50,903 bases of DNA from a virus (taxonomy: Duplodnaviria > Caudoviricetes). Both the position numbers and the translations under genes were made by a program. How positions within the stretch are numbered: the stretch's first letter is position 1; every line of letters begins with the position of its first letter. Of the stretch, positions 2,947-41,640 are shown piece after piece. The stretch covers positions 1 to 50,903 of IMG/VR virus record IMGVR_UViG_3300037845_000048; one strand, written 5' to 3'. Under the pieces are notes generated by a model, which was not told where the DNA came from, did no database searches, and worked only from the letters and a program-made list of their open reading frames with translations.

Positions 2947-5310
2947 CCCCCGAGACCCGAGCCGCACGCGACCGCCTAGCCCGATACGCCGGCCCCGACT
3001 TCCAGCCCCCGCCGATCGACCTCCCACGCCACCTCAACTGCCTCACCATCGCCGAAGTCGAACGCCTGATCGGCCGGATCGAGAGCGACATCCGCGACAC
3101 GCTCGCACCCGACATCCGGGCCATCGTCGAAGCGCTCGACCAGCACGACGAAGCCGAGAAAGACATCTGATGCAACCCCACGCGCAAGCCGCACGCGACA
3201 GGATCACCGCATACCTCGACGCCATGGCAGTCGACTCGCCGTGGGACTGGGAAATGGTCGGCCTCCACGGAACGAAACTCGAAAGCCGCGACCTGCGCCT
3301 GGTCCTGGCCGCGCTCGACCGGCGACCCACCGCCGTCATCGTCTGCGACCACACGCTCACCGAGGAACAGGCCGAAGACCTCAAACGCCGGTTCCTCGAA
3401 GCACAGCACGAGTCACCGATCCGCGACACGGCCGCAATCGTCCACCGCTACCTCAATCCGCCAGGCATGCCCTACGGCCTGACACCCCATCAGGCACCCG
3501 ACCGGTAACGGCCATGGACCAGATCGGCTGGTACATCGCCACCCTCCACGGGCTACTCGGCCACGACACGGCCGCCGCCGTGCTCGGCCAAGACCCCGGC
3601 GACAAGAACGCATGCGCACTCTGCGCCTACGAACGCGAACCCACACCCGAACACAAGCACGCGGTCGAGGCCGCCCTGACGCCAACCGGGAAAGCGAAGA
3701 CGACATGAGCGAGAGCCCCACATCCCGTTACCGCAAGAACCGGGCCAGGGCCTACCAGAACAAATTCGGCATCCGCTACACCCACGCCCTGCGCCTGGTC
3801 AACGCCGAGATGGAAGCACCCGACTTCGACCCGCGCTCACCGATCCCCGAGGAGCTGCCCGCGTGAACCGCTCAATCGTCTACGCGCGGCCCACCCCCGA
3901 AGGCATCGAGATCCTCTGCGACTGCGCCTTCACCACCGTGCTGGTCGTCGACGGCGTCCTAGAACGTGCCATCGAGCAGGCGTTCACCTGCGACGGATGC
4001 ATGACCGTCCACTGGTTCACCCTCACACCGAACAACCCGCAAACCTCCGATGACTCCGAAGCGAAAGGCACACAGTGACCATCCAAGTCGAGTTCACCGG
4101 CGACATAGTCCACATCTACGATGGCGACGGCACGCGCGCAGTCGAAGACACGCTCATCGTCACCGCCATGCAATGGGCACACCTCGTCGCGGCCATCCGC
4201 CTGCCGCCCCCCGAGGGCAGCGACGGTCATCCCCTCGTTCCTGCCTTTGCCGCCGCGTTCCTGTGCCCCTCCTGCCAGGGGCGCGGCACCGACCGCGACG
4301 GTTGCGCAGACTGCGACACGTGCAACGGCACTGGCTTATCCATCACCGAAAAGGACACGCAGTGACCGACACCACCGATGGACTCGGAGACCTCGCGGCC
4401 GAGCTCGCCGCCCTCGCCGCAGACACCACCGCGCAGATCACCGCGCTCGCCCAGCAACTCCAGCAGTTCATCATCCAAACCAGCCCACAATGCGCCACGT
4501 GCCTCGCCGAAGCACGCCAAGGAGCCCGGCCTGGCGCCAACCTCGTCAACGTCATCCTCGACGGCACCGGCTACTGCCACGACCATTGCGACGTCGTCAA
4601 CGGGCGGCTCGTGCCCAAGAAAAGCAGCGGCCTGATCGTCGCAGGAGGATGACGTGATCGGCACCTATTTCGCGCTCACCGGCGACGTCATCGCCCTCGC
4701 AGCCGCCTACTTCGCGCGCCGCGCAACCGTCCACCAGCGCCGCGCGCAACGCAAACTCGACGCCATCGCCGCCCTCGAAGTCCACGGCCGCGAATTCGTA
4801 GACGCCGCCCAGCTCTACGCCATCCTCGGCCGGCCCATCCCCGAACCGATCGACCACGCCGCCAACCTCCGTGCCAGAGTCGAACAGATCTTCACCCCCG
4901 GCCAACCCGACCCGCACAGTCCATACCGGAGCCCGTACACGTGAAGGCGTGCCCGGCGTGCGGAAGAGTGGTCGGCCTCTATTCGAACGGAAAACCGCCG
5001 CCCTCGCCTACCTCGGCGAGACACCATGAACGACCGGCGCCCGGCGTACCCCATCCCGGAATCCCTCACCATCCACCCCGCCGACCGCCACGAACTCAAC
5101 CGGCAACTACCCACCGCCACCGTCTACGGCCAACCCATCCACGGCAACACACCCATCATCGAAGACCCCGGCATGACGCCCGGGACACTACGCATCCGCA
5201 TCCAAGGCACCGACGCCACCGTCACCCTCGGACACCGGCCCACGCCGCGCTGGATACGCTGCGACCCCCACACCGGGCTACCCATCGGAGAACACGCGTT
5301 CGAAACGTGA
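2943..5310 (+). CDS. run of small coupled hypothetical genes (2943-3170, 3170-3508, 3514-3708, 3705-3866, 3863-4078, 4075-4365, 4362-4652, 4654-4944, 5026-5310)
   Basis: Mostly chained start/stop overlaps with RBS-like motifs and high GC3. No recognisable families. Confidence 0.55.
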
Positions 5311-5405: not shown

Positions 5406-5894
5406 ATGAGCGAGCCGAACAGCCGCAACCGGACCGCCGACCGCGACTTCGACATCTGGCAGCGATACAGCGACGGCCAAACCCAGGAGCAAATCGCAGC
5501 CCATTACGACCTCAGCCAACCGCAAGTCAGCGCGATCATCGCCCGCATGCGCGACGACATCCCCATCGAAGAACGCCGCGCACGCCAACGCCGCCAACTC
5601 GCCGACCTCGACCACCTACGCCAAGCCGCACTCGCCCTCGCCGACGCCGACCCCATCCCCGCCTACTCCAACGGCCGACCCATCATCCTCGCCGACGGCC
5701 ACACCATCGCCGAAGACCACACCAGCCGCGTCCGCGCCATGGACCTCGTGATCAAACTCCAAGAACGCGAAGCCAAAGCCCTCGGCACCGACGCCGCCAC
5801 CAAAATCAACCTCGAAGCCGAACAGACCGGCGAACGCATCAAATCCCTCCTGCGCAGGATCGCCGGCCAGAGCACCACCGATGACGCAGATTGA
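5406..5894 (+). CDS. terS: terminase small subunit (N-terminal HTH)
   Basis: GGGAGG RBS, HTH 'QTQEQIAAHYDLSQPQVSAII', and overlap with terL. Confidence 0.75.
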   Translation: MSEPNSRNRTADRDFDIWQRYSDGQTQEQIAAHYDLSQPQVSAIIARMRDDIPIEERRARQRRQLADLDHLRQAALALADADPIPAYSNGRPIILADGHTIAEDHTSRVRAMDLVIKLQEREAKALGTDAATKINLEAEQTGERIKSLLRRIAGQSTTDDAD

Positions 5895-7383
5895 CCTCGG
5901 CGCAGCCCAAGCCGACATCGACGCACTCATCCGCACCGGCAACCTCAAAGCCCTGCGCGCCCTCGAAGCCGACCTTCAATCCGTCGCCGACCGCATCGAG
6001 GCCGGCCAGCGCCAGGAACGCTGGCAGCACGACCCGGCCGCGTGGGTCAGCGAGCGCCTGGGCGGCTTCGCGTGGTCCAAGCAGCGCGAGATCCTTGCCG
6101 CGGTGCGCGACCATCGGCGCACCGCGGTGCGCTCCGGGCACGGCGTCGGCAAGTCGCACACCGCCGCGCTGGTCGCGTGCTGGTGGCTGGACACCCACCC
6201 GCCGGGCTCGGCGTTCGTCGTGTCCACGGCGCCGACGTTCCCGCAGGTGCGCGCGATCCTGTGGCGCTACATCCGCCGACTGCACACCGCCGCCGAGCTG
6301 CCCGGGCGCGTCAACCAGACCGAATGGTTCATCGACGACGAGCTCGTCGGCTACGGGCGCAAGCCCGCCGACACCGACGAGTCCGCGTTCCAGGGCATCC
6401 ACGAACGCTACGTGCTGGTCCTGATCGACGAGGCGTGCGGCATCCCCGAACAGCTGTGGGTCGCGGCGGACTCCCTCACCACGAACGTGGACTGCCGGAT
6501 GCTCGCGATCGGCAACCCCGACAACCCCGCATCGCACTTCCGCAAGGTGTGCGCCCCCGGCTCCGGCTGGCACACGATCGGGATCTCCGCGTTCGACTCC
6601 CCGAACCTGTCCGGCGAGCAGGTGCCCAAGAAGATGGCGCTCAGCCTCGTATCGCGCGAATGGGTGGAGGAGAAGCGCGACGAGTGGGGCGAGGACAACC
6701 CCCTGTATCGCTCCAAGGTCCTCGGCGAGTTCTCCGTCGACCACCCCAATCAGGTGGTGCGCCAGTCGGACGTGGCCGCGTGCCGACTGCCGGCCGAGAC
6801 CGCGCCGGCGGGGAAGGATCTGCTGCCGGTCGAGCTCGGCGTGGACGTCGGGGGCGGCGGCGACGAGACGGTGATCCGGGAGCGGCGCGGCCGGGTCGCC
6901 GGGCGGGAGTGGCGGGCGCGCACGGACCGGCCGGAGGCGATCGCGCCGTTGGTGCTTCAGGCGATCCGGGAGACCGGCGCGTCCGCGGTGAAGGTGGACA
7001 GCATCGGCATCGGGTTCGGGGTGATCGGCGAGCTGCGCAACATGGGCGCGGAGCTGCACCGGGCGCATGTGCAGGCGGTGAACGTCGCGGAGAAGCCGCA
7101 GGACCCGGACAAGTATGTGAACCTGCGCGCGGAGCTGTGGTGGGAGATCGGGCGCGGCCTGTCGGAGCGGGGAGGGTGGGATCTGTCGGGGATGGAGAAT
7201 GCGGATGTGACGGTCGCGCAGTTGCTGGAGCCGCGGTGGGAGATCGATGCGCAGGGGCGTATCAAGGTCGAGCCGAAGGCGGAGGTGATCAAGCGGTTGG
7301 GGCGCTCGCCGGACAACGCCGACGCCCTTCTTCTAGCTTTCTACGTGGGTCGTCGTCCGGGTTACCGTTCGTTCCAGCGTTGA
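5881..7383 (+). CDS. terL: terminase large subunit
   Basis: Walker A 'SGHGVGKS', Walker B 'VLIDEA', 'IGNP', and nuclease motifs 'LGVDVG' and 'SPDNADAL'. Confidence 0.95.
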   Translation: MTQIDLGAAQADIDALIRTGNLKALRALEADLQSVADRIEAGQRQERWQHDPAAWVSERLGGFAWSKQREILAAVRDHRRTAVRSGHGVGKSHTAALVACWWLDTHPPGSAFVVSTAPTFPQVRAILWRYIRRLHTAAELPGRVNQTEWFIDDELVGYGRKPADTDESAFQGIHERYVLVLIDEACGIPEQLWVAADSLTTNVDCRMLAIGNPDNPASHFRKVCAPGSGWHTIGISAFDSPNLSGEQVPKKMALSLVSREWVEEKRDEWGEDNPLYRSKVLGEFSVDHPNQVVRQSDVAACRLPAETAPAGKDLLPVELGVDVGGGGDETVIRERRGRVAGREWRARTDRPEAIAPLVLQAIRETGASAVKVDSIGIGFGVIGELRNMGAELHRAHVQAVNVAEKPQDPDKYVNLRAELWWEIGRGLSERGGWDLSGMENADVTVAQLLEPRWEIDAQGRIKVEPKAEVIKRLGRSPDNADALLLAFYVGRRPGYRSFQR

Positions 7384-13400: not shown

Positions 13401-15524
13401 GACACACCGGGATGTGCGCGTGATCGGAGCGGGAGATGACTGACCTCGACCAGGCCATTCGCGCCCGGCTGGACCACCTCTACAAGCAGGGCGGATCTTC
13501 GCCGCGACAGCTGCGTGCCGCGCTGCTCGGCGTACTGGCCTTCCATCAACCGGAGGATACGGACTTCACAGACGCCGATGGCCAGTCCCGCTCCAGCACT
13601 GACTGTGCGACCTGCGATAACGGCGGAGTCCCCGGGAACTGGCCATGCTCCACGCTGCGCACGATCGCCGAGAAACTGGGAATCGAACATGACTGACCTG
13701 AACGGAGCGACCATGACCCAACCCGGCGTTCTCGAACGCATCGCCACCGCACTCGAAACCATCGCCGCCATGCTCACCGGCGAAACCCCCACCACCCCCG
13801 CCGCGCGCACGCCACGCCACCCCGAGACCCGGTTCGAATGGGAACCCGCCGCCGACCAGGCCCCCGCCGCACCCCTGCCCGAACCCACGCCCCCCGAAGA
13901 ACGGTGCGGGTTCCTCATCGAGAAATACACCCACCCCCTGGACCGCGTCACCCCCGTCTACCAGATCAGCAAAGCCGGGGCCACCATCCTGCTCACCGAG
14001 CAGGAGGCCACGGCGCTGGCCGCACTCAGCGACGAGGAGTTCACGGGGGTCATGGCCGCCCGGCTCGCCGAAGTACTCGCCCAACGGCACGCCGCAGCGG
14101 CGGCGACGCCCGCGCCGTCCGCGGCGGATGACATCGAGGACGAAGACGAGGCGCGCGAGCGCCAATGGGCGCGCACGTTCAACGCCCACCCCGACCCCGA
14201 CGAAGCAGCGCGCACATGACCGGCGTCCTGCTGTTCGTGGTCGTGTTCGCGGCGTTCTACCCGCTCGGGGTGCTTCGCGCGAGGCTGCGCCCGGGGCCGT
14301 ACGCTCGACCCCATGCACACCACCACCGAAACGAGTCCCGCCGGCGCCGGGGCCGTGCCCGATCTGCGCCGCATGCCGCTCGGGAAGGCGGCGCCGGGGC
14401 CGGCGGTCCGGCTGGTGCGGCGACTGCTGCGCGACGAGGTCGTTGCGGCGGCGCAGTTCCAGTCCTCAGTCTGACCGCCGGCACCATGCGCACGCGTCCC
14501 CGCATTCCGACGCCGCGCCTAAACTCGAACCCATCCAACCGAGCCGACCAGGGAGTACCCGTGAGCGTTTTCTCCGAGATCGCCGCCGAAGCCGAGACCT
14601 TCAAGACGAAGCTCGCCGCCGATGCCGGGCATCTGCTCGGCGAGTTCGAGGCCCTGTGGGGCAAGCTGACCGATCAGGCCATGACCGACGGCGCTGATGT
14701 CATCAAGAAGGTCGAGCCCGTGGCCGCCGCGGCGGAAGCGGACGCGGCCGGGCTCGCCGGTGAGGCCGTGGCCGGTGCCGAGGGCATCGTGGACCCGGCG
14801 AAGCCGAGCGCCTGATGGGCACCGTGCCGAGTGTCGGCCGCGTCGTGCACTACGTCTCGCACGGCACCCCAGTCCGCGCCGACGGGACGCAGGCGTTCCA
14901 GAGCGTTTGCCGCACCGCGCTGATCACCGAGGTGGGCGAATGGCCCGAAGGGATCAGCGAAGCCGACCGCAGCAACATCGCCGTCCCCGTCGGGCTCGCC
15001 GTGCTCAACCCCACCGGCATGTTCTTCCAGCAGGGATGCATGCAGAGCGAGCTCGGCCACGAGGGCGGCTCGTGGCACTGGCCCGAGCGCGTCTAGCGCC
15101 CAGAAGGGAAGCACTGGCATGGAATGGACCTGGCAGATCGTCTACAACCCTGCGGCGCCTATCGACTCCGTCACGGCCGCCGCCCTCGAAGTCGACGAGA
15201 TCTCCTACGACCTGGTCGACGCGCAGGGCGCCGTGGTGTGGTCCGCACCGACCGGCAGCGTGCGCAACGTGACCCGGGGCGACGCCGTCACGCCGCCGAC
15301 CACCCAGAACGCGCCGGGGTCCTGACGTGGCGGAGCGCAGCGAGCACCTGAGCGACCCCGAGGGCACCGCAACCCACCGCCGCACCGGCCGAGGCGGCGA
15401 CGGCGAGATCTCCCAGAGCACCAGCGACGCACGCTACGACCAGGTGCAGGACGCCACCGCGAACGGCGACCCGGACGGTGTCGGGGACACGGCGCGCGGC
15501 TGGTTCCGCCGGTCGCGCAACTAA
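10494..15524 (+). CDS. rightward run of about 20 small hypothetical genes (e.g. 10494-10670, 10672-10863, 10865-11197, 11199-11426, 11428-11655, 11657-11980 wHTH-like, 11982-12170, 12172-12471, 12658-12870, 12867-13121, 13114-13443, 13436-13696, 13689-14219, 14561-14815, 14815-15096, 15119-15325, 15327-15524)
   Basis: Tightly chained TGA-n-ATG/GTG junctions and high GC3. Individual starts are approximate. Confidence 0.55.
10672..11519 (+). repeat. 92-bp direct repeat (10672-10763 and 11428-11519)
   Basis: Both copies start at an ATG (MAQAFGN...FEAIA) and differ at 4 positions. Confidence 0.9.
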
Positions 15525-15538
15525 CCGGTAGAGACGAG

Positions 15539-15575
15539 GAGAGCCGCATCCCGCGCTGGGGGGGATGCGGCTCTC
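15539..15575. terminator. hairpin terminator between convergent units
   Basis: GAGAGCCGCATCCC...GGGATGCGGCTCTC, a 14-bp perfect stem. Confidence 0.8.
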
Positions 15576-15618
15576 TGCGTGCTGCACTCGCGGCGCACGC
15601 CAACCGGAATCACCGGTA

Positions 15619-15690
15619 GCGCCTCGACGGGACTCGAACCCGCGCCTCTCCCCTCGAACGGGGAGCGCCCTGCCATTAGGCCACGAGACT
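15619..15690 (-). tRNA. tRNA-like gene or pseudo-tRNA with atypical anticodon loop
   Basis: - strand: acceptor GTCTCG/CGAGGC, D-arm GCCTAATGGCAGGGC, anticodon stem CTCCC/GGGAG with 8-nt loop CGTTCGAG, T-arm GCGGG-TTCGAGT-CCCGT. No encoded CCA. Confidence 0.65.
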
Positions 15691-15786
15691 GGGCCGCATG
15701 CACGCTGTCGGCCGAAACGGGAAATGTCCCTCAGCGGCTGCCTGCCGTGACTGCCACGGTAGCAGCGGCGGTGTCAGCGCGGGACG

Positions 15787-16326
15787 CTACCCTGCGCGCT
15801 CCTCCAGCTCCCCGAGACGCCGCTTGAGCTCCGCGATCTCCTCTTCCGTGCGCTCCCCGCGCTCCATCACCGCGTCCAGCGCCTTCTCCGTGCGGCGCTG
15901 GCGCCCGGCGAGGCGGCGGTTGATCTCCATCTGCTCCGCGAACCCCCGCGCGACCACCTCGAACGCCTTGCGCACCTCCGGGTCGGCGTCGGACAGGTCC
16001 ACGTTCGTGGCCTTCGAGTACGCCATCTCCAATTGCGCCCCGGCGCGGCGCCCATGGGTGTGTGCGAGGCGCAGCTGCCCGTTCACGTCCACGACCCGGT
16101 AGCCCTCGTTGCGCACCCCCTCGATCGCGCGCTTGTCCTTCTCCTCGTGTTCTTCGGCCGCGCGCCGCATGGCGGTGATCATCGCGGAGCGGTGGCGCAC
16201 CGGGTCGAGGCCGAGGGCGTCGGCCATCGCCTGGTAGGTCACGATCCCGCCGACGGGGGTGCCCTTGAGCAGCCGGTAGAGGACCTTCCATCGCGGTTCG
16301 TCGCCAAGCGGTTCGAACGGGCTCAC
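15787..16326 (-). CDS. wHTH-like plus coiled-coil accessory protein coupled to the RAMP-like gene
   Basis: GTGA overlap with the stop at 16323. 'VTYQAMADALGLD...VRNEGYRVV' is wHTH-like; the C-terminus is a coiled coil. Confidence 0.7.
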   Translation of the reverse strand: MSPFEPLGDEPRWKVLYRLLKGTPVGGIVTYQAMADALGLDPVRHRSAMITAMRRAAEEHEEKDKRAIEGVRNEGYRVVDVNGQLRLAHTHGRRAGAQLEMAYSKATNVDLSDADPEVRKAFEVVARGFAEQMEINRRLAGRQRRTEKALDAVMERGERTEEEIAELKRRLGELEERAG

Positions 16327-16928
16327 GACACGTCCTTGACGACGGTCAGCGTGCCCTCGAAGCGCCCGTAGCGCGGGCGCCAGTCCCCGAGGCCGATGAG
16401 GCGCCCGGCGATGTCCACGAGCTGCGTGAGGTCGTCGTAGTCGAGGACTTCTGTGTCGAGGTAGAGCATCGCGGAAGTTCGCCACGAGTTGTCGGAGTTC
16501 TTGGGATCAACCGGAAACTTCGGCCGGGTGCGGATGATGCGCTGCTGTCCGACTTTCGCGGAGGCCTGGAGCATGAAGTTGCCGTCGCGCCACAGCTCGT
16601 CGGGTTCGCGGGGGCCTTTGTAGGCGAGGGGGTTCTCGTCGGTGGTGATGATGACGCCGGAGGTGACTTTGACGCCGAGTTTGCGTTTGCGGCCTGCGTC
16701 GACGAGGCAGCGGAAGATGTTGTCGGCGGGGATGTAGGGGCCGACGGGGCCGTTGTAGAGGCCGCCGAGGAATTCGAGGCGGGCGAGTTCGAGGTAGTCG
16801 TCTTCGGATTTGCTGCGTTTGGCGCTGACTTTCTTCATGGCGCGGGCGAGTTCGTCGAGGGGGTTGGAGAGTCGGGCGTTGTGCATGAGGAGTGGTGCGG
16901 TGCCGGTGATGTCGAGTTTGAGGTCCAT
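16323..16928 (-). CDS. stand-alone Cas7/RAMP-like RNA-binding protein (Vipr-like)
   Basis: 201 aa from ATG 16928 (ACAGGACGG RBS). Motifs 'ITGTAPLLMHN', 'PYIPADNIFRCLVDAG', 'RTRPKF..W' and the G-rich loop 'IGLGDWRPRYGRF' occur in RAMP order. Confidence 0.75.
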   Translation of the reverse strand: MDLKLDITGTAPLLMHNARLSNPLDELARAMKKVSAKRSKSEDDYLELARLEFLGGLYNGPVGPYIPADNIFRCLVDAGRKRKLGVKVTSGVIITTDENPLAYKGPREPDELWRDGNFMLQASAKVGQQRIIRTRPKFPVDPKNSDNSWRTSAMLYLDTEVLDYDDLTQLVDIAGRLIGLGDWRPRYGRFEGTLTVVKDVS

Positions 16929-16950
16929 CGGGTTCCGTCCTGTAGTGGTG

Positions 16951-17616
16951 ACCATGCCTAGGCCTGCCGGGCCTGGACCTGCCATGCCGAGTCACGCCCG
17001 GCAGAGCCCTGCGGAGCCGAGGGCTGCCCTGCCATGCACGGTCGAGCCATGCGCAGCCCTGCGTGCGTGTCCGGGATTCGGACCCGGATATATGCCGTCC
17101 GCGCTGGTGGAACCCATGCCGTGCCCTGCCGGGCGCTGACTCGCCGCGACACGCCGCGCGTTGCCTTGACCCGCCTAGCGTGGCCAAGTCCCGCCAGGCC
17201 ATGCGTTGCCCCGACATGCCGGGACGCGCCTCGCCGGGAGGAACACGCACGTGGTCACGCGCGCACTCCACTCGAAGAGGAACCCAAGCCGGGCCTAGAC
17301 CTGCCCTGACAAGCCATGCCGCGTCCTGCCGTGCCCTGCGTGTGTGCCGGGGACTCGGACCCCGGGGTATGCCGTCCACACGGTGAAACCCAAGCCCTGC
17401 AATGCCCGACCAAGCCCAGCCGTTGCCACGCCGCGCCATGGCTTGCCCGGCCGGGACTCGCCCCGCCCAGAGACCCGTGCGCGGACCACGCCGCACGGGA
17501 ATCACCCGAAGGGGAACCAAGCCGAAGCCAAGCCGGGCCTCGCGGAGCCTAGACCGGCCTCGCCATGCCCCGGCTCGCGCTGCCCGGCGCTGCCCTGCAT
17601 CGCATAGCCGCGCCAC
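16951..17616 (-). ncRNA. array of five pentamer-periodic (NN-GGC) tracts with structured spacers; putative guide-RNA array
   Basis: Tracts 16951-17060 (22 units), 17113-17237 (25), 17283-17337 (11), 17389-17469 (16) and 17516-17616 (20). + strand units are mostly GCCNN. Confidence 0.85.
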
Positions 17617-17635
17617 ACGCCGCCGCGTGTCATTA

Positions 17636-17665
17636 ACCATAGCACCACGCCAGTTCGCACGTGAA
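17636..17665 (-). promoter_or_regulatory. putative promoter for the array and RAMP operon
   Basis: TTCACG-18 nt-TATGGT with an extended TG (TGCTATGGT, 17644-17636). It is followed by the hairpin ACACGC-GGCG-GCGTGT. Confidence 0.55.
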
Positions 17666-17815
17666 ACCGCGCGATAAAACACTACGAAACCCACCTGTTG
17701 CCACCCGCGCAACACGCTGACCAGCCGCTACCGCCTGCCTAATCAGCGATGTACCCTCACCATCAGGCGCACTGACAATGCGCCATACTCAGCATCGAGG
17801 GGAGGCGGCGGTCCG

Positions 17816-18082
17816 ATGTCGGTCGGCACCATCACCCCCCCGCGCAACGCCGCCAGACCCCGGGACAGGTGGCGAAGCGCACGCACGGCACTCGACGCGG
17901 CGAGGCGTAGAGGTGCCACGGTGGTCGGCGCGGTGCGGCACCACAACTGGAGCCCCGCGCTGACCATCAGCGGACTCTCCTGCATCGACGCCGCGTTCTA
18001 CCAGCACGGGTGGTTCGCCGGACTCCTCGCCACCGGCATCAGCGCCCTGGTCTACGACTGGTCCCGCGAGCGCGGCGCATGA
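17816..18082 (+). CDS. small membrane protein preceding portal
   Basis: GGGGAGG RBS, two hydrophobic segments, ATGA overlap with portal. Confidence 0.6.
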   Translation: MSVGTITPPRNAARPRDRWRSARTALDAARRRGATVVGAVRHHNWSPALTISGLSCIDAAFYQHGWFAGLLATGISALVYDWSRERGA

Positions 18083-19575
18083 GCCTGATCGGCAAAGCCC
18101 TCGCCGTGCGCAACAAGGCCCCCATCCCCCTGGACAACGGTCGCGCCTACCGCCGCGGCGTCGCGTTCAACCTCGGCAACGGGCGCGCCGACGCCGAGAC
18201 CGCGATGCGCCAGTACGGCCTGTCCGGCACCATCTACGGGATCATCTCGCTGCTCGCCGAGACCGCCGCCACCCCGAAATGGCACCTGTACAAGAAGCAG
18301 CCCGTCGACGGGCGACGCAGGTACACCACCGCGGACAAGGGCACCGACCAGCGCATCGAAGTCGTGCAGCACGCGGCGATCCAGCTTTGGAACTCACCCA
18401 ATGCGTGGCACTCAAGGTTCGAATATGCGGAGGGTTGCCAGCAGCACGAGGAGCTGACCGGCGAGACCTTCTGGGTCCTGGACACGGACGCCGGATTCCC
18501 CACCAGCATGTGGTACGTACGCCCCGACCGCATGGAACCGGTCCCCGACCCCGACAACTTCCTCGTCGGCTGGATCTACCGAGGCCCCAACGGCGAGGAC
18601 GTCCCCCTGCGGGCCGACGAGGTCATCCTCGAGAAGCGCCCCAACCCCCTAGATCCGTACCGGGGTGCCGGGCCGGTCGCGTCGATCATGCCGAACATCC
18701 AGCAGCAGCGGTACGCCACCGAGTACCAGCGCAACCTCTTCTTGAACGGCGCGGACCCCGGCGGCGTGATCACCGTCCCCAACCGGCTCACCGAGCCACA
18801 GTTCGACGAGCTCGTGGACCGGTGGCGTGAGGCCCACCGCGGCGTCGCCCGCGCCGGACAGGTCGGCGTCCTGGAGGACGGCGCCACCTGGGCGCCCAAC
18901 GCCCACACCAACAAGGACATGGAGTACGGGCAGCTGCGCCTAGCCAACCGGGACGAGCTGCGCGAGGCGTGGCGCATCCACAAGGCCATGATGGGCACCA
19001 GCGACGACGTGAACCGCGCGAACTCGCAAACCGCGCAGGAAGTGTTCGTCGCGTGGCAGGTGCTGCCCCGCCTGAACCGGCGCCGCGACACCCTGAACAA
19101 CAAGCTGCTGCCGCTGTTCGGCAACGCCGACAAGACCGTCGAGTTCGACTACGAGGACCCCAGCCCCGAGAACGCCGAAACCGCGGCCCTCGAGCTGAAA
19201 GAAAAAGCGCAGGCCGCCCAGGCACTGGTCAACGCCGGATACGACCCCCACGACGTCCTCGAGACCGTCGGCCTGCCGGACATGGACGTCGTCGAGACCG
19301 CCACGCAGGCCCCGGCGCTACCCCCCGCGTGGGTACCGGCCGCGCCCCCCGCGCCCGAAACCGCACCCGCCGGCGCACCGGCCGTCCCGGCCGCGCGCGA
19401 ATCGATCAGCGTGTGGGCCAGCGCCCCCCCGATCCCGCAACTGCCCGCGGCCACGCAGGAACCCGAAGCCGAACCCGCACTGGACATCGCGCCGCTCGCC
19501 GCGTTCCTGCGCCACTCACTGAACGGCCGGATGAACGGCCACGCGATCAACGGAGACTCGGAGGCCCGTCGATGA
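18079..19575 (+). CDS. portal protein (HK97 family)
   Basis: 'LTGETFW', 'RPDRM', 'PLDPYRGAGP', 'FLNGADPGGVI', 'VLEDGATW...DMEY'. Confidence 0.9.
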   Translation: MSLIGKALAVRNKAPIPLDNGRAYRRGVAFNLGNGRADAETAMRQYGLSGTIYGIISLLAETAATPKWHLYKKQPVDGRRRYTTADKGTDQRIEVVQHAAIQLWNSPNAWHSRFEYAEGCQQHEELTGETFWVLDTDAGFPTSMWYVRPDRMEPVPDPDNFLVGWIYRGPNGEDVPLRADEVILEKRPNPLDPYRGAGPVASIMPNIQQQRYATEYQRNLFLNGADPGGVITVPNRLTEPQFDELVDRWREAHRGVARAGQVGVLEDGATWAPNAHTNKDMEYGQLRLANRDELREAWRIHKAMMGTSDDVNRANSQTAQEVFVAWQVLPRLNRRRDTLNNKLLPLFGNADKTVEFDYEDPSPENAETAALELKEKAQAAQALVNAGYDPHDVLETVGLPDMDVVETATQAPALPPAWVPAAPPAPETAPAGAPAVPAARESISVWASAPPIPQLPAATQEPEAEPALDIAPLAAFLRHSLNGRMNGHAINGDSEARR

Positions 19576-21020: not shown

Positions 21021-22454
21021 ATGGCCCCGACGATGAAAGTCCCGACCGACTCCGCCGGGATCATGGAACTGCTCAACGACGAGACCGCCCTCAAGGCCCG
21101 GTTCAGCCGGGAGGCCGTGGCCAACGGCGACACCAAGGAATTCCTGGACGCCTACGCCAAGATGTACCTGAAGAGCAACTCCGACACCGTCGACGACGTG
21201 CGCGAACAGGTCCAGTCCGTCATCTTCGACCTGGTGCGCGACAACGGCGCCAAACGCGGCCCCAAGCTCGGCGTGTCCATGGACAGCGGGCGCCCCCAGC
21301 TGAGCGTCGACGGCACCGCCCGCGTCTCGCGCGGCCGCGGCGCCGTCTACAACAAGACATCCGCCGGGGCGCAGCTGGAGCGGGCGTACAAGCCCGCGGA
21401 CCGGTTCAACTCCATGGGCGAGTACTGCAAGGCGATCTTCGAGCTGCGCTCCCCGTCCACCCGCGCGGACCGCGACGACATCATCCGCAAGCTCGACAAC
21501 GTGCGCACCTTCCAGAACTCCTTCGGCTCGGAGGAGCCGGGCGCCGGCGGGTTCCTCATCCCGGAGATCATGCGCTCCGAGCTGCTCCAGCTCGCGCTGG
21601 AGGAGTCGATCGTGCGCAACCGCGCGACCGTCATCCCCATGTCCACGCTGCGCGTCCCCATCCCCACCGTGGACGACACCAGCCACGTGAGCAGCGTGTT
21701 CGGCGGGATCGTGTTCTACTGGACCGAAGAGGCAGCCGCCCTCACCGAGTCCACCGCAACCTTCGGACGTGTCACCCTTGATGCCAAGAAGCTGACAGGA
21801 TTCTTCAAGGTCCCCGCCGAACTCCTCGACGACGCACCCGCGTTCGGCGCCTGGTTCGACGAGCGCGTCCCCGCCGGCCTCGCCTGGTTCGAAGACATCG
21901 CGTTCATGACCGAAACCGGCGCCGGAACCCCCGAAGGGTTCATCAACTCCCCCGCGTCCGTGTCCGTCACCAAGGAGACCGGGCAGTCCAGCGGCACCAT
22001 CGTCTGGGAAAACATCGTCAAGATGTACTCCCGCATGCTCCCCACCAGCCTGAAGAACGCCGTGTGGATCGCCGCCATCGACACCTTCCCCCAACTCGCC
22101 ACCATGGCCCTGTCGGTGGGCACCGGTGGCGGACCGGTGTGGATCGGCGGCTGGTCCCAGCCCGGCTCCGACCTGCCCCCCATGACGATCCTCGGCCGCC
22201 CGGTGATCTTCACCGAGAAGGTCCCGGCACTGGGCACCACCGGAGACATCAACTTCGTCGACCTCAGCTACTACCTCATCGGCGACCGCCAGCAAGTCCG
22301 AGTGGACTCCAGTGAGCATTTTTTGTTCGCCAATAACCAGGTCGCTTACCGTTTAATTTCCAGGGTTGATGGTAGGCCATGGATTCAGTCAGCCTTGACC
22401 CCCCACAACAATGGACCGAGTTTAAGCCCTTTTGTCCAGATTCAGACCCGCTAA
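21021..22454 (+). CDS. major capsid protein (HK97 fold)
   Basis: 'GGFLIPE', 'WTEEAAALTES..TFGRVTL.AKKL', 'TILGRPVIFTE', 'RVDGRP', and position after the protease. Confidence 0.93.
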   Translation: MAPTMKVPTDSAGIMELLNDETALKARFSREAVANGDTKEFLDAYAKMYLKSNSDTVDDVREQVQSVIFDLVRDNGAKRGPKLGVSMDSGRPQLSVDGTARVSRGRGAVYNKTSAGAQLERAYKPADRFNSMGEYCKAIFELRSPSTRADRDDIIRKLDNVRTFQNSFGSEEPGAGGFLIPEIMRSELLQLALEESIVRNRATVIPMSTLRVPIPTVDDTSHVSSVFGGIVFYWTEEAAALTESTATFGRVTLDAKKLTGFFKVPAELLDDAPAFGAWFDERVPAGLAWFEDIAFMTETGAGTPEGFINSPASVSVTKETGQSSGTIVWENIVKMYSRMLPTSLKNAVWIAAIDTFPQLATMALSVGTGGGPVWIGGWSQPGSDLPPMTILGRPVIFTEKVPALGTTGDINFVDLSYYLIGDRQQVRVDSSEHFLFANNQVAYRLISRVDGRPWIQSALTPHNNGPSLSPFVQIQTR

Positions 22455-23379: not shown

Positions 23380-23874
23380 ATGGCGTGGCGCAGCAGGTCG
23401 CGGCGCAGGGCGAAGAGGAGGGCGTATGTGCACCGGCGCGGATATCACATCCACCATCGGGTGCATCACCGCTTCCACCATGTGCGCTTCCACCACGTGC
23501 GCAAGCACAGGGTGCGGTTCCACCATGTCCGCAAGCACCACATCCGGTTCCACCACGTCCGTAAGCATCACGAGCGTCCGCATCACGAGCGCCGCAGGCA
23601 CCATGCGCGGGCACACCGGGCGCGGCGTGCGAGGCGCCGCGCGATGGCCGCGCGGCACCAGCTGCACCGCCACCCCGGCCCGCACCGCCCGCGCACCGGG
23701 CATCCGCGGCACCGAGTGGTGGGGATCCGGCAGCACCGGGCGCACATGCGCCGGCGTTACCGGGCGCAGGTCGGGCGGCTGCGCAAGCCGCGCCACCACT
23801 ACCGCCCGCAGGTGGGGCGCCTTAAGAAGCATCGCGGCTACCGGGCGCAGACCGGGAAGCTGCGCCGCAGGTGA
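23380..23874 (+). CDS. Arg/His-rich protamine-like repeat protein
   Basis: 164 aa: 51 R, 35 H, 8 K, 2 E, 0 D by manual count. Synonymous variation between the peptide repeats supports this frame. Confidence 0.7.
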   Translation: MAWRSRSRRRAKRRAYVHRRGYHIHHRVHHRFHHVRFHHVRKHRVRFHHVRKHHIRFHHVRKHHERPHHERRRHHARAHRARRARRRAMAARHQLHRHPGPHRPRTGHPRHRVVGIRQHRAHMRRRYRAQVGRLRKPRHHYRPQVGRLKKHRGYRAQTGKLRRR

Positions 23875-40508: not shown

Positions 40509-40696
40509 CCGCGGTCCTGTCGTATCTGAACCGGGACTTCTGGGGCCCGGTGTGGCCGAACCTGGTGGCGTCGGTGTTGTGGGCGGCTCCGGCGTTCACG
40601 GTGCACCACCGGTTGATGCGTAGGCATACGACGCGGGAGATCGACCGGCAGACCCGGGAGTTGAAGGCGCACATGGACAAGATGGGCGCCCCGTGA
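40505..40696 (+). CDS. small membrane protein
   Basis: One hydrophobic helix; GTGA overlaps at both ends. Confidence 0.55.
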
Positions 40697-41640
40697 CCAC
40701 CATCGCGTACCCCGACGTCTCCAACTACGAGGGCCCGATGCCGCTTCAGGCCGGGACGGTCGCCGTGTGCGCGAAGGCGACCGAGGGCACGGGCTTCGTC
40801 GACGAGCAGTACGCGCACTTCAAGGCCGAGGCGACGCGGGTCGGCGCGGTGTTCTTCGCGTACCACTACCTGCATCCCGGGGGCGGCGCGGCGCAGGCGC
40901 GGTTCTGCTTCGGCGTGGTGGGGCGCGGGGTGAACGTGATGATCGACCACGAGCCGACCGGCGGCGTGATGCCCAGCTTGCAGGACGCGGTCGACTTCGC
41001 GGTGCAGCTGCGTTCGCTCGGCGCGCTGTGCACCCTGGACTACCTGCCGCACTGGGGGTGGCAGCAGCTGGGGTCGCCGTCGCTCGCGCCGCTGGCGTCG
41101 GCCGGCCTGTCGCTGGCGTCGAGCAGCTACACGGCGTACTCGGACACGGGTGTCGGGTGGCAGTCGTACGGCGGGATGTCGCCGGTGACGTGGCAGTGGA
41201 CGGATTCGCAGCCGTATTCGGGGACCCACGTGGACTTCAACGCCTACCGTGGGACGTTGGACCAATTCCGGGCGCTGCTCGGGCTGAAGACACTGGAGGC
41301 TGACATGGCGCTGACGGTCGCCGATGCGAACCTGGTAGCCGATTATGTCCTGAACCGCCCGCTCGGGGAGATCGACCTCGCCGGGCATCTGACCGGGCAG
41401 CAGCTGAGCCTGGGGCATCTGGTCGCGCAGGCGCATGCCGACCTGGACGGCAAGCTTGACGCGTTGGGCGTGAAGGTGGACGCGGCGAACACGGCGCTCG
41501 CGGCGCTCAAGCTGGGTGGTGTGGATCTGGCGGCGCTGGAGTCGCTGATCGAGGCGCATCTCGCGGCCGGTTCGGTGCCGTCGGTGATCGCTGCGGCGGT
41601 GGCGAAGCATTTCGGCGCGGACCTGACCGCCGGGGGCTGA
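40693..41640 (+). CDS. endolysin, GH25 muramidase
   Basis: 'DVSNYE', 'KATEGTGFVD', 'AYHYL', 'IDHE', 'WQWTDS', 'VDFNAY'. Confidence 0.9.
   Translation: MTTIAYPDVSNYEGPMPLQAGTVAVCAKATEGTGFVDEQYAHFKAEATRVGAVFFAYHYLHPGGGAAQARFCFGVVGRGVNVMIDHEPTGGVMPSLQDAVDFAVQLRSLGALCTLDYLPHWGWQQLGSPSLAPLASAGLSLASSSYTAYSDTGVGWQSYGGMSPVTWQWTDSQPYSGTHVDFNAYRGTLDQFRALLGLKTLEADMALTVADANLVADYVLNRPLGEIDLAGHLTGQQLSLGHLVAQAHADLDGKLDALGVKVDAANTALAALKLGGVDLAALESLIEAHLAAGSVPSVIAAAVAKHFGADLTAGG

What the first reader, a model, noticed from the sequence alone, without database searches (positions are those of the whole stretch)
16951..17616. Five tracts (94 units) of strict 5-nt periodicity with constant GGC and variable dinucleotide
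Seen: the + strand parse of tract 16951-17060 is accat gccta ggcct gccgg gcctg gacct gccat gccga gtcac gcccg gcaga gccct gcgga gccga gggct gccct gccat gcacg gtcga gccat gcgca gccct. The other four tracts have 25, 11, 16 and 20 units, with only two 6-nt units (17419 and 17521). The first base is nearly always G and the first three are mostly GCC, while the last two vary freely and differ between tracts. Four tracts end (RNA sense) in WTGG(G)TT and the gene-proximal one in ATGGTC. Inference: a fixed scaffold with variable information does not look like a slippage microsatellite, and a 5-nt period is incompatible with coding.
Basis: seen in the sequence. Interest (0 to 1): 0.92.

Follow-up and report, generated by a model that had tools for sequence, protein, structure and literature searches.

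The report
Phage VIPR guide-RNA array
The five 5-base-periodic tracts are the guide-RNA array of a VIPR system, a phage RNA-guided DNA-silencing system first described in 2026 preprints, so the finding is real but belongs to a known kind.

Summary
There are 95 pentamers in five tracts at 16951-17621. Read on the minus strand they are (NN-GGY)n, with Y kept in 93/95 units and the NN positions carrying almost no information.

The tracts lie directly upstream of a minus-strand gene (16323-16928) whose product matches the solved SUSP1 Vipr protein (PDB 36pp, E 1.9e-26). The published GGY-contact residues are kept. An overlapping accessory gene follows at 15787-16326.

This is the VIPR architecture published in 2026 (bioRxiv 10.64898/2026.04.26.720920 and .720927). 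One Vipr protomer binds each GGY/NN repeat, and the NN bases pair with DNA while skipping every third base.

- 47 of 53 Vipr-homologue loci carry such tracts, 129 on the sense strand against 3 antisense.
- The NN bases are not conserved in the closest relative.
- A soil RNA-library contig covers exactly two of the guides.
- No target was found.

Features that may be unreported: tRNA-like acceptor/T-arm modules between guides, with strong covariation and 52 model matches all in sense; guides of 20-25 units; and degenerate units that are almost never adjacent.

Verdict: a new member of a known kind.

The parts
17636..17665 (-). Possible promoter for the array: a TTCACG-like -35, an 18-nt spacer and a TATGGT -10. 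Weak and found by eye only.
   Evidence: Read from the sequence. The consensus scan found no sigma-70-type site in 15400-18100. The RNA-library contig ends at 17619, just downstream.
17522..17621 (-). vrRNA 5 repeat tract (most upstream), 20 NN-GGY units.
   Evidence: Covered by the metatranscriptome contig 17329-17619.
17475..17521 (-). 3' tail of vrRNA 5. It starts TTGGTTCC and has a hairpin, and is not tRNA-like.
   Evidence: Sequence. The fold predicts a hairpin, but its energy is not better than shuffles.
17394..17474 (-). vrRNA 4 repeat tract, 11 + 5 units with a one-base phase slip at 17419.
   Evidence: Covered by the RNA-library contig.
17336..17393 (-). 3' tail of vrRNA 4. It starts TTGGGTTTC and then carries a tRNA-like element: a 5-bp acceptor-like stem, a GG-containing D-loop-like linker and a T-arm.
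   Evidence: Covariance-model match at 17336-17388, 57.0 bits, E 3.5e-12. This sequence was part of the training set. Covariation.
17288..17342 (-). vrRNA 3 repeat tract, 11 units. The first unit overlaps the 3' flank of the tRNA-like element.
17243..17287 (-). 3' tail of vrRNA 3. It starts TTGGGTTCC and has a 13-bp hairpin, and is not tRNA-like.
   Evidence: MFE -21.9 kcal/mol, z -1.33.
17118..17242 (-). vrRNA 2 repeat tract, 25 units. Perfect and degenerate GGY units nearly alternate.
17059..17117 (-). 3' tail of vrRNA 2. It starts ATGGGTTCC and then carries a tRNA-like element.
   Evidence: Covariance-model match at 17059-17111, 47.7 bits, E 1.1e-9. This sequence was part of the training set.
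16951..17065 (-). vrRNA 1 repeat tract, 23 units. It ends ATGGTC 22 nt before the vipr start codon.
16323..16928 (-). vipr gene (201 aa), a RAMP-like protein expected to bind one pentamer per protomer.
   Evidence: PDB 36pp_D 'SUSP1 Vipr protein', E 1.9e-26, residues 3-191 against 4-186. phrog_4652, E 3.2e-52.
15787..16326 (-). vap-like accessory gene (179 aa). Its GTG start overlaps the vipr stop (GTGA).
   Evidence: Homologues lie directly after vipr in 18 loci. No significant Pfam or PDB match.
15619..15690 (-). tRNA-like gene downstream of vap with an unassigned anticodon. It may or may not belong to the operon.
   Evidence: ARAGORN 'tRNA-???'. Sequence.
15539..15575 (-). GC-rich hairpin that may end the operon. 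It has no T-run.
   Evidence: Read. The terminator scan did not call it.

Best explanation
The region is a VIPR (Viral Interference Programmable Repeat) locus of an uncultivated high-GC actinophage.

The minus strand of about 16951-17621 is transcribed as an array of five vrRNAs. Each is a run of GGY-NN pentamers followed by a structured 3' tail. The array lies upstream of vipr (16323-16928) and a vap-like gene (15787-16326).

By homology with the SUSP1 system, one Vipr protomer binds each pentamer and the protomers build a helical filament. The filament buries each GGY and exposes each NN. The exposed dinucleotides pair with a DNA strand that reads NNx NNx, skipping every third base (usually the codon wobble position). 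The bound gene of a competing phage, satellite or prophage is then silenced.

Shown here:
- the periodic anatomy of the tracts;
- Vipr homology with the contact residues conserved;
- strand-specific co-occurrence of tracts with vipr across phyla;
- non-conservation of NN in a close relative;
- absence of self-targets;
- presence of part of the array in an RNA library.

Inferred from the papers: RNP formation, the 1-nt-skip rule and the silencing function.

Inferred by me: the tRNA-like modules after vrRNA 4 and vrRNA 2 act as 3' caps and/or as punctuation cut by host tRNA-processing enzymes (RNase P or RNase Z).
For: 1. Vipr homology. The gene product matches PDB 36pp_D 'SUSP1 Vipr protein' at E 1.9e-26 over nearly its full length. 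In that alignment H17, K33, R39, R138 and the D177-W178-R179 G-loop (GDWRPR) are identical. E71 becomes D and K82 becomes R. The roles of these residues come from the cryo-EM preprint.

2. Link to the characterised system. wV8 gp95, which I found flanked by (NNGGT)n tracts, matches SUSP1 Vipr over its full length at E 6.1e-128.

3. Repeat anatomy. Y3 is kept in 93/95 units, G2 in 75/95 and G1 in 73/95, and NN is uninformative. This fits the published YNNGG/GGY-NN definition.

4. Association with vipr. Of 21 portal relatives, only the one that has vipr (L022) has tracts. Of 53 Vipr-homologue loci, 47 have at least one sense tract next to vipr, with 129 sense against 3 antisense tracts (some loci are duplicate records).

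5. NN varies while the scaffold and flanking genes are conserved.

6. No self-target. The best matches in the window and in all fetched loci equal shuffled-order controls. The paper reports the same for its own systems.

7. RNA presence. In a soil metatranscriptome run, a 291-nt contig with 0 mismatches and depth 8.9 covers 17329-17619. It is the only part of 15500-18300 held at 99% or better.

8. tRNA-like modules. Across 32 elements 96% of cells pair, 10/11 pairs show double changes, and the covariation score is 0.779 against 0.170 in shuffles (0/500). The acceptor-like helix, which was not used for selection, pairs at 92.5% with 5/5 covarying pairs. The covariance model gives 52 matches, all on the vipr-sense strand, and 20 of them are new.
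Against: - No natural target was found. The only exact hit, L058, looks like chance.
- 39 of 95 units have an imperfect GGY. Three tracts (20, 23 and 25 units) exceed the reported range of 9-16 units, so some guides could be decayed or could work differently.
- The RNA evidence is a single assembled contig in an RNA library. It shows neither strand nor ends, and DNA carry-over cannot be excluded.
- The vap-like protein has no significant family or structure match, and no sequence similarity to the partner genes of the E. coli and Pseudomonas phage loci was detected.
- No promoter or terminator was called by the scan.
- Two of the four inter-guide tails are not tRNA-like.
Confidence: 0.9

Rival explanations
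1. It is a VIPR array, but largely a decayed or inactive relic. Many GGY units are degenerate and the guides no longer direct binding.
For: 39/95 units are imperfect. Three tracts are longer than the reported range. No target was found in any search.
Against: Y3 is kept in 93/95 units. Degenerate units avoid each other far more than chance: 4 adjacent pairs against 14.1 +/- 2.3 in permutations, 0/20000. That pattern points to selection rather than drift. Vipr keeps its contact residues. Part of the array is present in an RNA library. The paper itself notes frequent internal degeneracy of vrRNAs. My target searches were insensitive, because they needed exact or near-exact blocks.
Confidence: 0.07
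2. The tracts serve mainly as a cis-regulatory leader. Vipr (or another oligomeric RNA-binding protein, in the manner of TRAP) binds the leader RNA to control translation of vipr, rather than guiding DNA recognition.
For: All five tracts lie upstream of vipr, and tract 1 ends 22 nt before the start codon, next to the ribosome-binding site. This was my own working idea before the literature search (note).
Against: In relatives the tracts also lie downstream of the gene pair. The NN bases are hypervariable. The homologous SUSP1 RNAs are experimentally shown to be trans-acting guides. Autoregulation through tract 1 could still exist in addition.
Confidence: 0.02
3. It is a DNA-level or non-functional feature: a slippage microsatellite, protein-binding iterons, G-quadruplex-forming DNA, or part of the 402-aa ORF 16507-17715.
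For: The ORF is open across the tracts. GG runs every 5 nt could in principle form two-tier quadruplexes. TRF reports weak period-10 arrays.
Against: - Units are not copies of each other, and only 3 of the 5 positions are constrained.
- The ORF has no family match, and a 5-nt period is not a codon period.
- Strand bias relative to vipr is 129 to 3.
- The flanking tails show RNA-type covariation.
- The best-kept base is the pyrimidine rather than the Gs, which argues against a quadruplex.
Confidence: 0.01

Closest known systems
VIPR systems of Escherichia phage SUSP1 and a Pseudomonas fulva prophage (type II; bioRxiv 10.64898/2026.04.26.720920 and 10.64898/2026.04.26.720927; Results, Discussion and parts of the Methods read)
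   Same: - A Vipr protein of about 200 aa with the same GGY-contact residues.
- GGY/NN pentamer tracts on the sense strand flanking vipr.
- A structured 3' tail after each tract.
- An accessory gene overlapping the end of vipr.
- Phage-borne, with no self-targets.
   Different: - About 33% identity only (tblastn to Felixounavirus Vipr homologues).
- All five guides lie upstream of vipr, whereas SUSP1 has one upstream and three downstream.
- Three tracts have 20-25 units, against 9-16 reported.
- Tails are tRNA-like modules or plain hairpins rather than the SUSP1 pseudoknot.
- The vap-like protein shows no detectable sequence similarity to the partners in wV8, Medea1 or LESphi2.
- The VIPR type could not be assigned, because the type tables are in supplements I could not open.
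Other VIPR array architectures named in the first preprint: staggered arrays and hammerhead-ribozyme-interspersed arrays
   Same: Guides are separated by self-contained RNA modules that could define their ends.
   Different: Here, and in 22 other actinobacterial or actinophage loci (a few are duplicate records), the module is a tRNA-like acceptor/T-arm element. The word 'tRNA' occurs 0 times in the main text of the three VIPR preprints. No paper in the library holds both 'vrRNA' and 'tRNA-like'. The supplements were not seen.
Class 1 CRISPR Cas7 (RAMP) backbone on crRNA
   Same: According to the preprints, RAMP-fold protomers polymerise along a guide RNA and flip bases out at a fixed period.
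   Different: The period is 5 rather than 6. Three guide bases are buried per unit, and the target is read as NNx. There are no CRISPR repeats or spacers and no other cas genes. The fold was not tested here.
TRAP (trp RNA-binding attenuation protein) with its (G/U)AG-NN repeats, and potexvirus coat protein with its 5'-terminal pentamer repeats (both recalled from memory, not from any call)
   Same: A fixed triplet plus a variable dinucleotide, bound by one protein subunit per 5 nt.
   Different: There is no homology. In those systems the variable bases carry no guide information. These were analogies considered before the literature search.
tRNA-like punctuation of precursor RNAs processed by RNase P and RNase Z, such as mitochondrial transcripts and MALAT1-mascRNA (recalled from memory)
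   Same: An acceptor-stem plus T-arm element with a T-loop consensus and a GG 'D-loop' partner sits between functional RNAs.
   Different: The element has no anticodon arm. ARAGORN and Rfam do not call it. Cleavage is untested.

Membership tests
VIPR system | A Vipr protein homologous to the characterised Vipr (RAMP-like, about 20 kDa) | tested here: met
   201 aa. PDB 36pp_D 'SUSP1 Vipr protein', E 1.9e-26, query residues 3-191 against chain residues 4-186.
VIPR system | Residues that hold G1, G2 and Y3 and that contact DNA (SUSP1 H17, D177, R138, W178, R179, K33, R39, K82) | tested here: met
   In the alignment, H17, K33, R39, R138, D177, W178 and R179 are identical and K82 is R. E71 is D, M72 is N and K88 is V.
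VIPR system | RAMP fold: RRM core, glycine-rich loop and thumb | not testable with these tools
Only the G-loop sequence motif and the homology to a solved Vipr support the fold.
VIPR system | Tandem YNNGG (GGY/NN) repeats with conserved GGY and variable NN, on the vipr sense strand in flanking intergenic DNA | tested here: met
   95 units. Y3 in 93/95, G2 in 75/95, G1 in 73/95, and NN at 0.07/0.23 bits. Minus-strand orientation and position just upstream of vipr. NN not conserved in L022.
VIPR system | 9-16 repeats per vrRNA (a reported range that describes the family rather than defining it) | tested here: inconclusive
   Tracts of 11 and 16 units fit; tracts of 20, 23 and 25 units do not. 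A lenient detector, which can overcount by a few units, finds tracts of 20 or more units in other homologue loci too.
VIPR system | A conserved structured 3' tail after each repeat tract | tested here: met
   Every tract is followed by WTGG(G)TT plus a hairpin or a tRNA-like module. The structure differs from the SUSP1 pseudoknot.
VIPR system | A vap accessory gene next to vipr | tested here: met
   A 179-aa gene whose GTG start overlaps the vipr stop, with homologues after vipr in 18 loci. Its DNA-binding nature is not shown. There are only sub-threshold hints to the MGMT winged-helix domain (Pfam E 0.054; PDB E 0.8-0.9).
VIPR system | vrRNAs expressed as discrete small RNAs that co-purify with Vipr | not testable with these tools
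   There is only a hint. A 291-nt contig in a soil metatranscriptome equals 17329-17619. Contigs show neither ends nor strand.
VIPR system | NN bases match DNA of competing mobile elements under the 1-nt-skip rule | tested here: inconclusive
   No credible target was found.
- 0 exact hits in viral contigs for four guide blocks.
- 0 of 42 related viral records at up to 3 mismatches.
- In metagenome contigs, 0 hits for one guide and 1 chance-like hit for another.
- 0 of 5 and 0 of 401 actinobacterial genomes.
All of these searches needed exact or near-exact blocks, unlike the paper's threshold of 80% NN match.
VIPR system | No self-targeting | tested here: met
   The best xNN matches in the window equal shuffled-order controls.
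tRNA / tRNA-like element (for the inter-guide modules) | Acceptor-like stem stacked on a T-arm, with a T-loop consensus and a GG partner | tested here: met
   32 aligned elements. T-loop G-T-Y-C-R-A-N-Y-C; GG at 90% or more. 96% of cells paired, 10/11 pairs with double changes, covariation 0.779 against 0.170. T-stem pairing was a selection criterion; the acceptor-like stem was not.
tRNA / tRNA-like element (for the inter-guide modules) | A full cloverleaf with an anticodon arm, or recognition by tRNA or Rfam models | tested here: not met
   ARAGORN calls none of them. Rfam gives no tRNA or tmRNA match in the window region or in six loci. They are mini-elements rather than tRNAs.

The most novel reading that the evidence does not exclude
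In actinobacterial phages, VIPR arrays are punctuated by tRNA-like acceptor/T-arm 'elbow' modules. These modules recruit host tRNA-processing enzymes (RNase P, RNase Z, perhaps the CCA-adding enzyme) to cut and cap the guides. This would be an array-maturation route not described in the main text of the VIPR preprints.

The same clade uses guides of 20-25 units, which would read about 60-75 bp of target. In those guides a degenerate GGY is tolerated only between two intact ones, which suggests a cooperative rule for filament assembly.
Probability: 0.4. Interest if true: 0.6.

Novelty: new member of a known kind. Interest (0 to 1): 0.4.

Why it matters
VIPR is a newly described mode of RNA-guided DNA recognition, proposed to be older than CRISPR. 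This locus extends it to an uncultivated soil actinophage and shows that the 5-nt signature can be recognised in raw sequence.

Comparison across 53 homologue loci confirms the strict link between tracts and vipr from Actinobacteria to Proteobacteria.

It also points to three testable features:
- tRNA-like modules as guide punctuation or caps;
- guides well beyond 16 units;
- the avoidance of adjacent degenerate units.

Each of these bears on how vrRNAs mature and how Vipr filaments assemble.

The comparison also exposes likely mis-annotations in deposited phage genomes, where vrRNA arrays are annotated as coding sequence.

Tried and rejected
Ideas held before the literature search and then dropped:
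- A TRAP-like or potexvirus-coat-like RNA-binding leader, two-tier G-quadruplexes, DNA iterons or a packaging site (note). These were superseded by the VIPR identification.
- Coding by the 402-aa ORF. It has no family match.

Searches that gave nothing:
- Rfam: no match in 16000-18500, and only two sub-threshold miRNA-model matches in six homologue loci.
- megablast of 16000-19000 against phage records: no match.
- The portal protein in genome contigs: no relative, so no host could be inferred that way.

Target searches under the published 1-nt-skip rule:
- Local scan of the window and all loci held at that point (429,521 bases): best matches equal shuffled controls.
- Exact blocks of guides 3, 2, 1 and 5 in viral contigs: 0 hits each.
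- Guide 3 at up to 3 mismatches in 42 related viral records: 0.
- Guide 3 in metagenome contigs: 0.
- Guide 4 in metagenome contigs: 1 hit, L058. It lies in a low-GC contig that does not look like phage, and the flanking units do not match, so I judge it chance.
- A 16-unit block of guide 2 at up to 3 mismatches: 0 of 5 genomes that carry Vipr homologues, and 0 of 401 genomes sampled from the class of one of them.
These searches are far less sensitive than the nhmmer search at 80% NN match used in the paper. Absence of a hit therefore says little.

Other negative or non-significant results:
- vap function: no Pfam, PDB, profile-PDB or PADLOC match of any weight.
- Folding energies of the tails are not better than shuffles, except for L022 (z -3.0). 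Thermodynamics alone therefore does not support the tails; covariation does.
- Promoter and terminator scan: nothing useful.
- In the RNA-library laying, the genes flanking the array have no cover. I make nothing of that.

Supplements of the VIPR preprints (type tables, figs S16-S19) were not opened. They may already show actinophage arrays, tRNA-like tails or long guides.
Full report
**Observation.** The 5-nt periodicity is real and unique in the window.
- Base-identity autocorrelation over 16951-16616... read as 16951-17616 peaks at lags 5, 10, 15 and 20 (0.43-0.45, against 0.20-0.32 at other lags).
- All 40 best 100-nt windows for a period-5 score lie in 16911-17680 (top 0.29; window-wide mean 0.008, sd 0.035).
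- A phase map shows five in-phase runs with one-base slips at 17419 and 17521.
- I parse 95 units: 23, 25, 11, 5+11 and 20. On the + strand position 1 is G in 90/95, position 2 is C in 75/95 and position 3 is C in 73/95. The last two positions carry 0.07 and 0.23 bits.
- On the minus strand the unit is NN-GGY, with Y kept in 93/95 units.
- A strict detector finds no such tract elsewhere in the 50.9 kb on either strand.

**Context.** The window is a virus record of 50,903 bases, 69% G+C, estimated 93% complete.
- Portal is at 18079-19575, major head protein at 21021-22454, large terminase at 5881-7383 and endolysin at 40693-41640.
- The tracts fill the space between a small + strand gene ahead of portal and a minus-strand gene at 16323-16928 (phrog_4652, E 3.2e-52, annotated 'unknown function').
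- Tract 1 ends 22 nt before that gene's start codon.
- The 402-aa ORF that spans the tracts has no family match.

**Association with the gene.**
- Of 21 IMG/VR relatives found with the portal protein, only L022 has a period-5 signal. Only L022 has the phrog_4652 gene and its downstream partner.
- tblastn of the protein against phage records found 130 records. I opened seven of them: Gordonia phages Trine and MakoManhole, Mycobacterium phages LittleE and prophiBWHA-1, Escherichia phage wV8, and Pseudomonas phages Medea1 and LESphi2.
- All seven carry (NNGGY)n tracts on the sense strand of the gene, upstream and/or downstream of the gene pair. The triplet is GGT in the low-GC E. coli phage and GGC in the high-GC ones.
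- Adding 28 IMG/VR loci and 19 genome loci, and dropping L042, which is the same record as Trine, gives 53 loci. Of these, 47 have at least one sense tract next to the gene.
- The tract tally is 129 sense against 3 antisense. Some loci are duplicate records: L041/L063, L037/L060, L056/L057, and L048/L053 are near-identical.
- The detector is lenient and can run a few units into the tails.

**Identification.** A full-text search for 'pentanucleotide repeats', 'phage' and 'noncoding RNA' returned bioRxiv 10.64898/2026.04.26.720920. I read its Results, its Discussion and parts of its Methods. It describes VIPR systems as follows:
- a Vipr protein of about 20 kDa with a RAMP fold, and an accessory vap gene;
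- vrRNAs of 9-16 YNNGG repeats followed by an invariable structured 3' tail;
- NN dinucleotides that pair with DNA under a 1-nt-skip rule (the target reads xNN);
- natural targets in competing phages, satellites and prophages;
- seven types, with array architectures that include staggered and hammerhead-interspersed arrays.

The companion cryo-EM preprint 10.64898/2026.04.26.720927 (Results part 1 read) shows one protomer per repeat in a right-handed filament and names the contact residues. Two further preprints were consulted only by outline or passage search.

**Membership tests.**
- The window's protein matches PDB 36pp_D 'SUSP1 Vipr protein' at E 1.9e-26, residues 3-191 against 4-186.
- In that alignment SUSP1 H17, K33, R39, R138, D177, W178 and R179 are identical. 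K82 is R, E71 is D, M72 is N and K88 is V.
- wV8 gp95 matches SUSP1 Vipr over its full length at E 6.1e-128, and the LESphi2 protein matches at E 1.8e-41. The tracts I saw around those genes are therefore those of the published clades.
- The partner gene (15787-16326, 179 aa) starts at a GTG that overlaps the vipr stop. It has homologues directly after vipr in 18 loci. It has no significant Pfam, PDB or PADLOC match, so its DNA-binding role is only an analogy with the paper.
- The fold of Vipr could not be checked.

**NN variability.** vipr-vap DNA of L022 aligns with the window at 78% over 1225 nt. The NN strings of its two 11-unit guides match the window's guides only at shuffle level: 0.33-0.64 against shuffle means of 0.30-0.54, never above the shuffle maxima.

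**Expression hint.** Two soil DNA runs hold most of the stretch. One soil metatranscriptome run from another study holds a 291-nt contig identical to 17329-17619, at depth 8.9. That is vrRNA 5, its tail, vrRNA 4 and its tRNA-like tail. Nothing else in 15500-18300 is held at 99% or better. Contigs show no strand or ends and DNA carry-over is possible, so this is a weak hint.

**Targets.** None was found (details under Tried and rejected). The window has no self-target. The tools allowed only exact or 3-mismatch blocks, so the negative result is weak.

**What may go beyond the published descriptions.**

1. *tRNA-like modules.* Tails 4 and 2 of the window, and the tails in many actinophage loci, share one design. 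A 5-bp stem encloses a linker with a near-invariant GG and a T-arm whose loop fits the tRNA T-loop consensus. This is followed by R-CGC and then the next tract.
   - T-arm-like hairpins number 41 in sense against 7 in antisense across 36 sequences.
   - On 32 aligned elements, 96% of cells pair, 10 of 11 pairs show changes on both sides, and the covariation score is 0.779 against 0.170 in shuffles (0/500). It stays well above all slid controls.
   - The T-stem was a selection criterion. The outer stem was not, and it pairs in 92.5% of cells with 5/5 covarying pairs.
   - A covariance model finds 52 matches at E of 0.01 or less in 23 of 66 sources. All are on the vipr-sense strand. 32 are training sequences and 20 are new, some in duplicate records. 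There are none in the 12 portal-only loci searched, in L022, or in the proteobacterial and other non-actinobacterial loci.
   - ARAGORN and Rfam do not call these elements.
   - 'tRNA' occurs 0 times in the main text of three VIPR preprints. No paper in the library holds both 'vrRNA' and 'tRNA-like'. Supplements were not seen.
   - From general knowledge, RNase P and RNase Z accept acceptor/T-arm minihelices. I therefore infer that the modules act as processing punctuation and/or as 3' caps. This is untested.
   - Tails 5 and 3 are plain hairpins.

2. *Long guides.* Tracts of 20, 23 and 25 units exceed the reported 9-16. Tracts of 20 or more units also occur in other homologue loci by the lenient count.

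3. *Non-adjacent degenerate units.* Only 56 of 95 units are perfect GGY, yet imperfect units are almost never adjacent: 4 adjacent pairs against 14.1 +/- 2.3 in permutations, with 0 of 20,000 permutations as low. This gives tract 2 a near-10-nt super-period. It would fit the published finding that two neighbouring protomers share each GGY, but that link is my inference.

**Verdict.** The element is a VIPR vrRNA array with its vipr and vap-like genes. It is a new member of a kind described in 2026 preprints. The mechanism is inferred by homology and not shown for this phage.

Noticed in passing
window 15619-15690 (-): A tRNA-like gene lies about 100 nt downstream of the vap-like gene. ARAGORN cannot assign its anticodon ('tRNA-???'). 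By eye the 7-nt loop would read as anticodon UCG. A GC-rich hairpin follows at 15539-15575.
   Followed up: partly
L023 3591-3888 (Gordonia phage Trine gene 40); L025 2554-2943 (Mycobacterium phage LittleE gene 35): Deposited annotations call coding sequence across vrRNA arrays. The first ~300 nt of Trine gp40 are two tracts plus three tRNA-like modules, and a good start codon lies at 3889. LittleE gp35 (opposite strand) overlaps two tracts and two modules.
   Followed up: partly
L027 2750-2807 and 4143-4200 (Escherichia phage wV8): The record's 'DR_4' repeat_region features coincide with the conserved 3' tails that follow the (NNGGT)n tracts on either side of the vipr-vap pair.
   Followed up: partly
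L048 2798-3205, L053 1773-2083, L056/L057 3614-4017: Some IMG/VR loci have four to seven tracts back to back with little or no tail between them, with successive tracts overlapping by a few bases in my detector. These may be the 'staggered arrays' of the preprint.
   Followed up: no
L074 and L075 (Sorangium sp. So ce134 chromosome): Two Vipr-homologue loci lie about 8.4 kb apart in one chromosome, each with three sense tracts.
   Followed up: no
L077 (Candidatus Iainarchaeum MAG): An archaeal contig has a partial Vipr match (residues 130-190) and one sense tract that my lenient detector counts as 31 units.
   Followed up: no
window 5881-7383 versus 18079-19575: The large terminase gene lies about 10.7 kb upstream of the portal gene. 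Genes on both strands and the VIPR locus lie between them, which is an unusual order for a tailed-phage packaging module.
   Followed up: no
window 23470-23596: A tandem repeat of period 15/30 (2.9 copies of 30 nt, 82% matches, score 109) lies in the structural-gene region.
   Followed up: no
window 17298 and 17360-17362: Contigs of the two soil DNA runs that hold the phage break inside the vrRNA array (X1 at 17298; X2 at 17360/17362). The repeats probably fragment the assemblies.
   Followed up: no
window tails at 17113-17117, 17283-17287, 17389-17393, 17516-17520; relatives: The last unit of a tract is very often (A/T)TGG, followed by G, A or T. Examples are GGCATGG in actinophages and GGTATGG in wV8. 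This suggests a conserved 3' boundary signal across phyla.
   Followed up: partly
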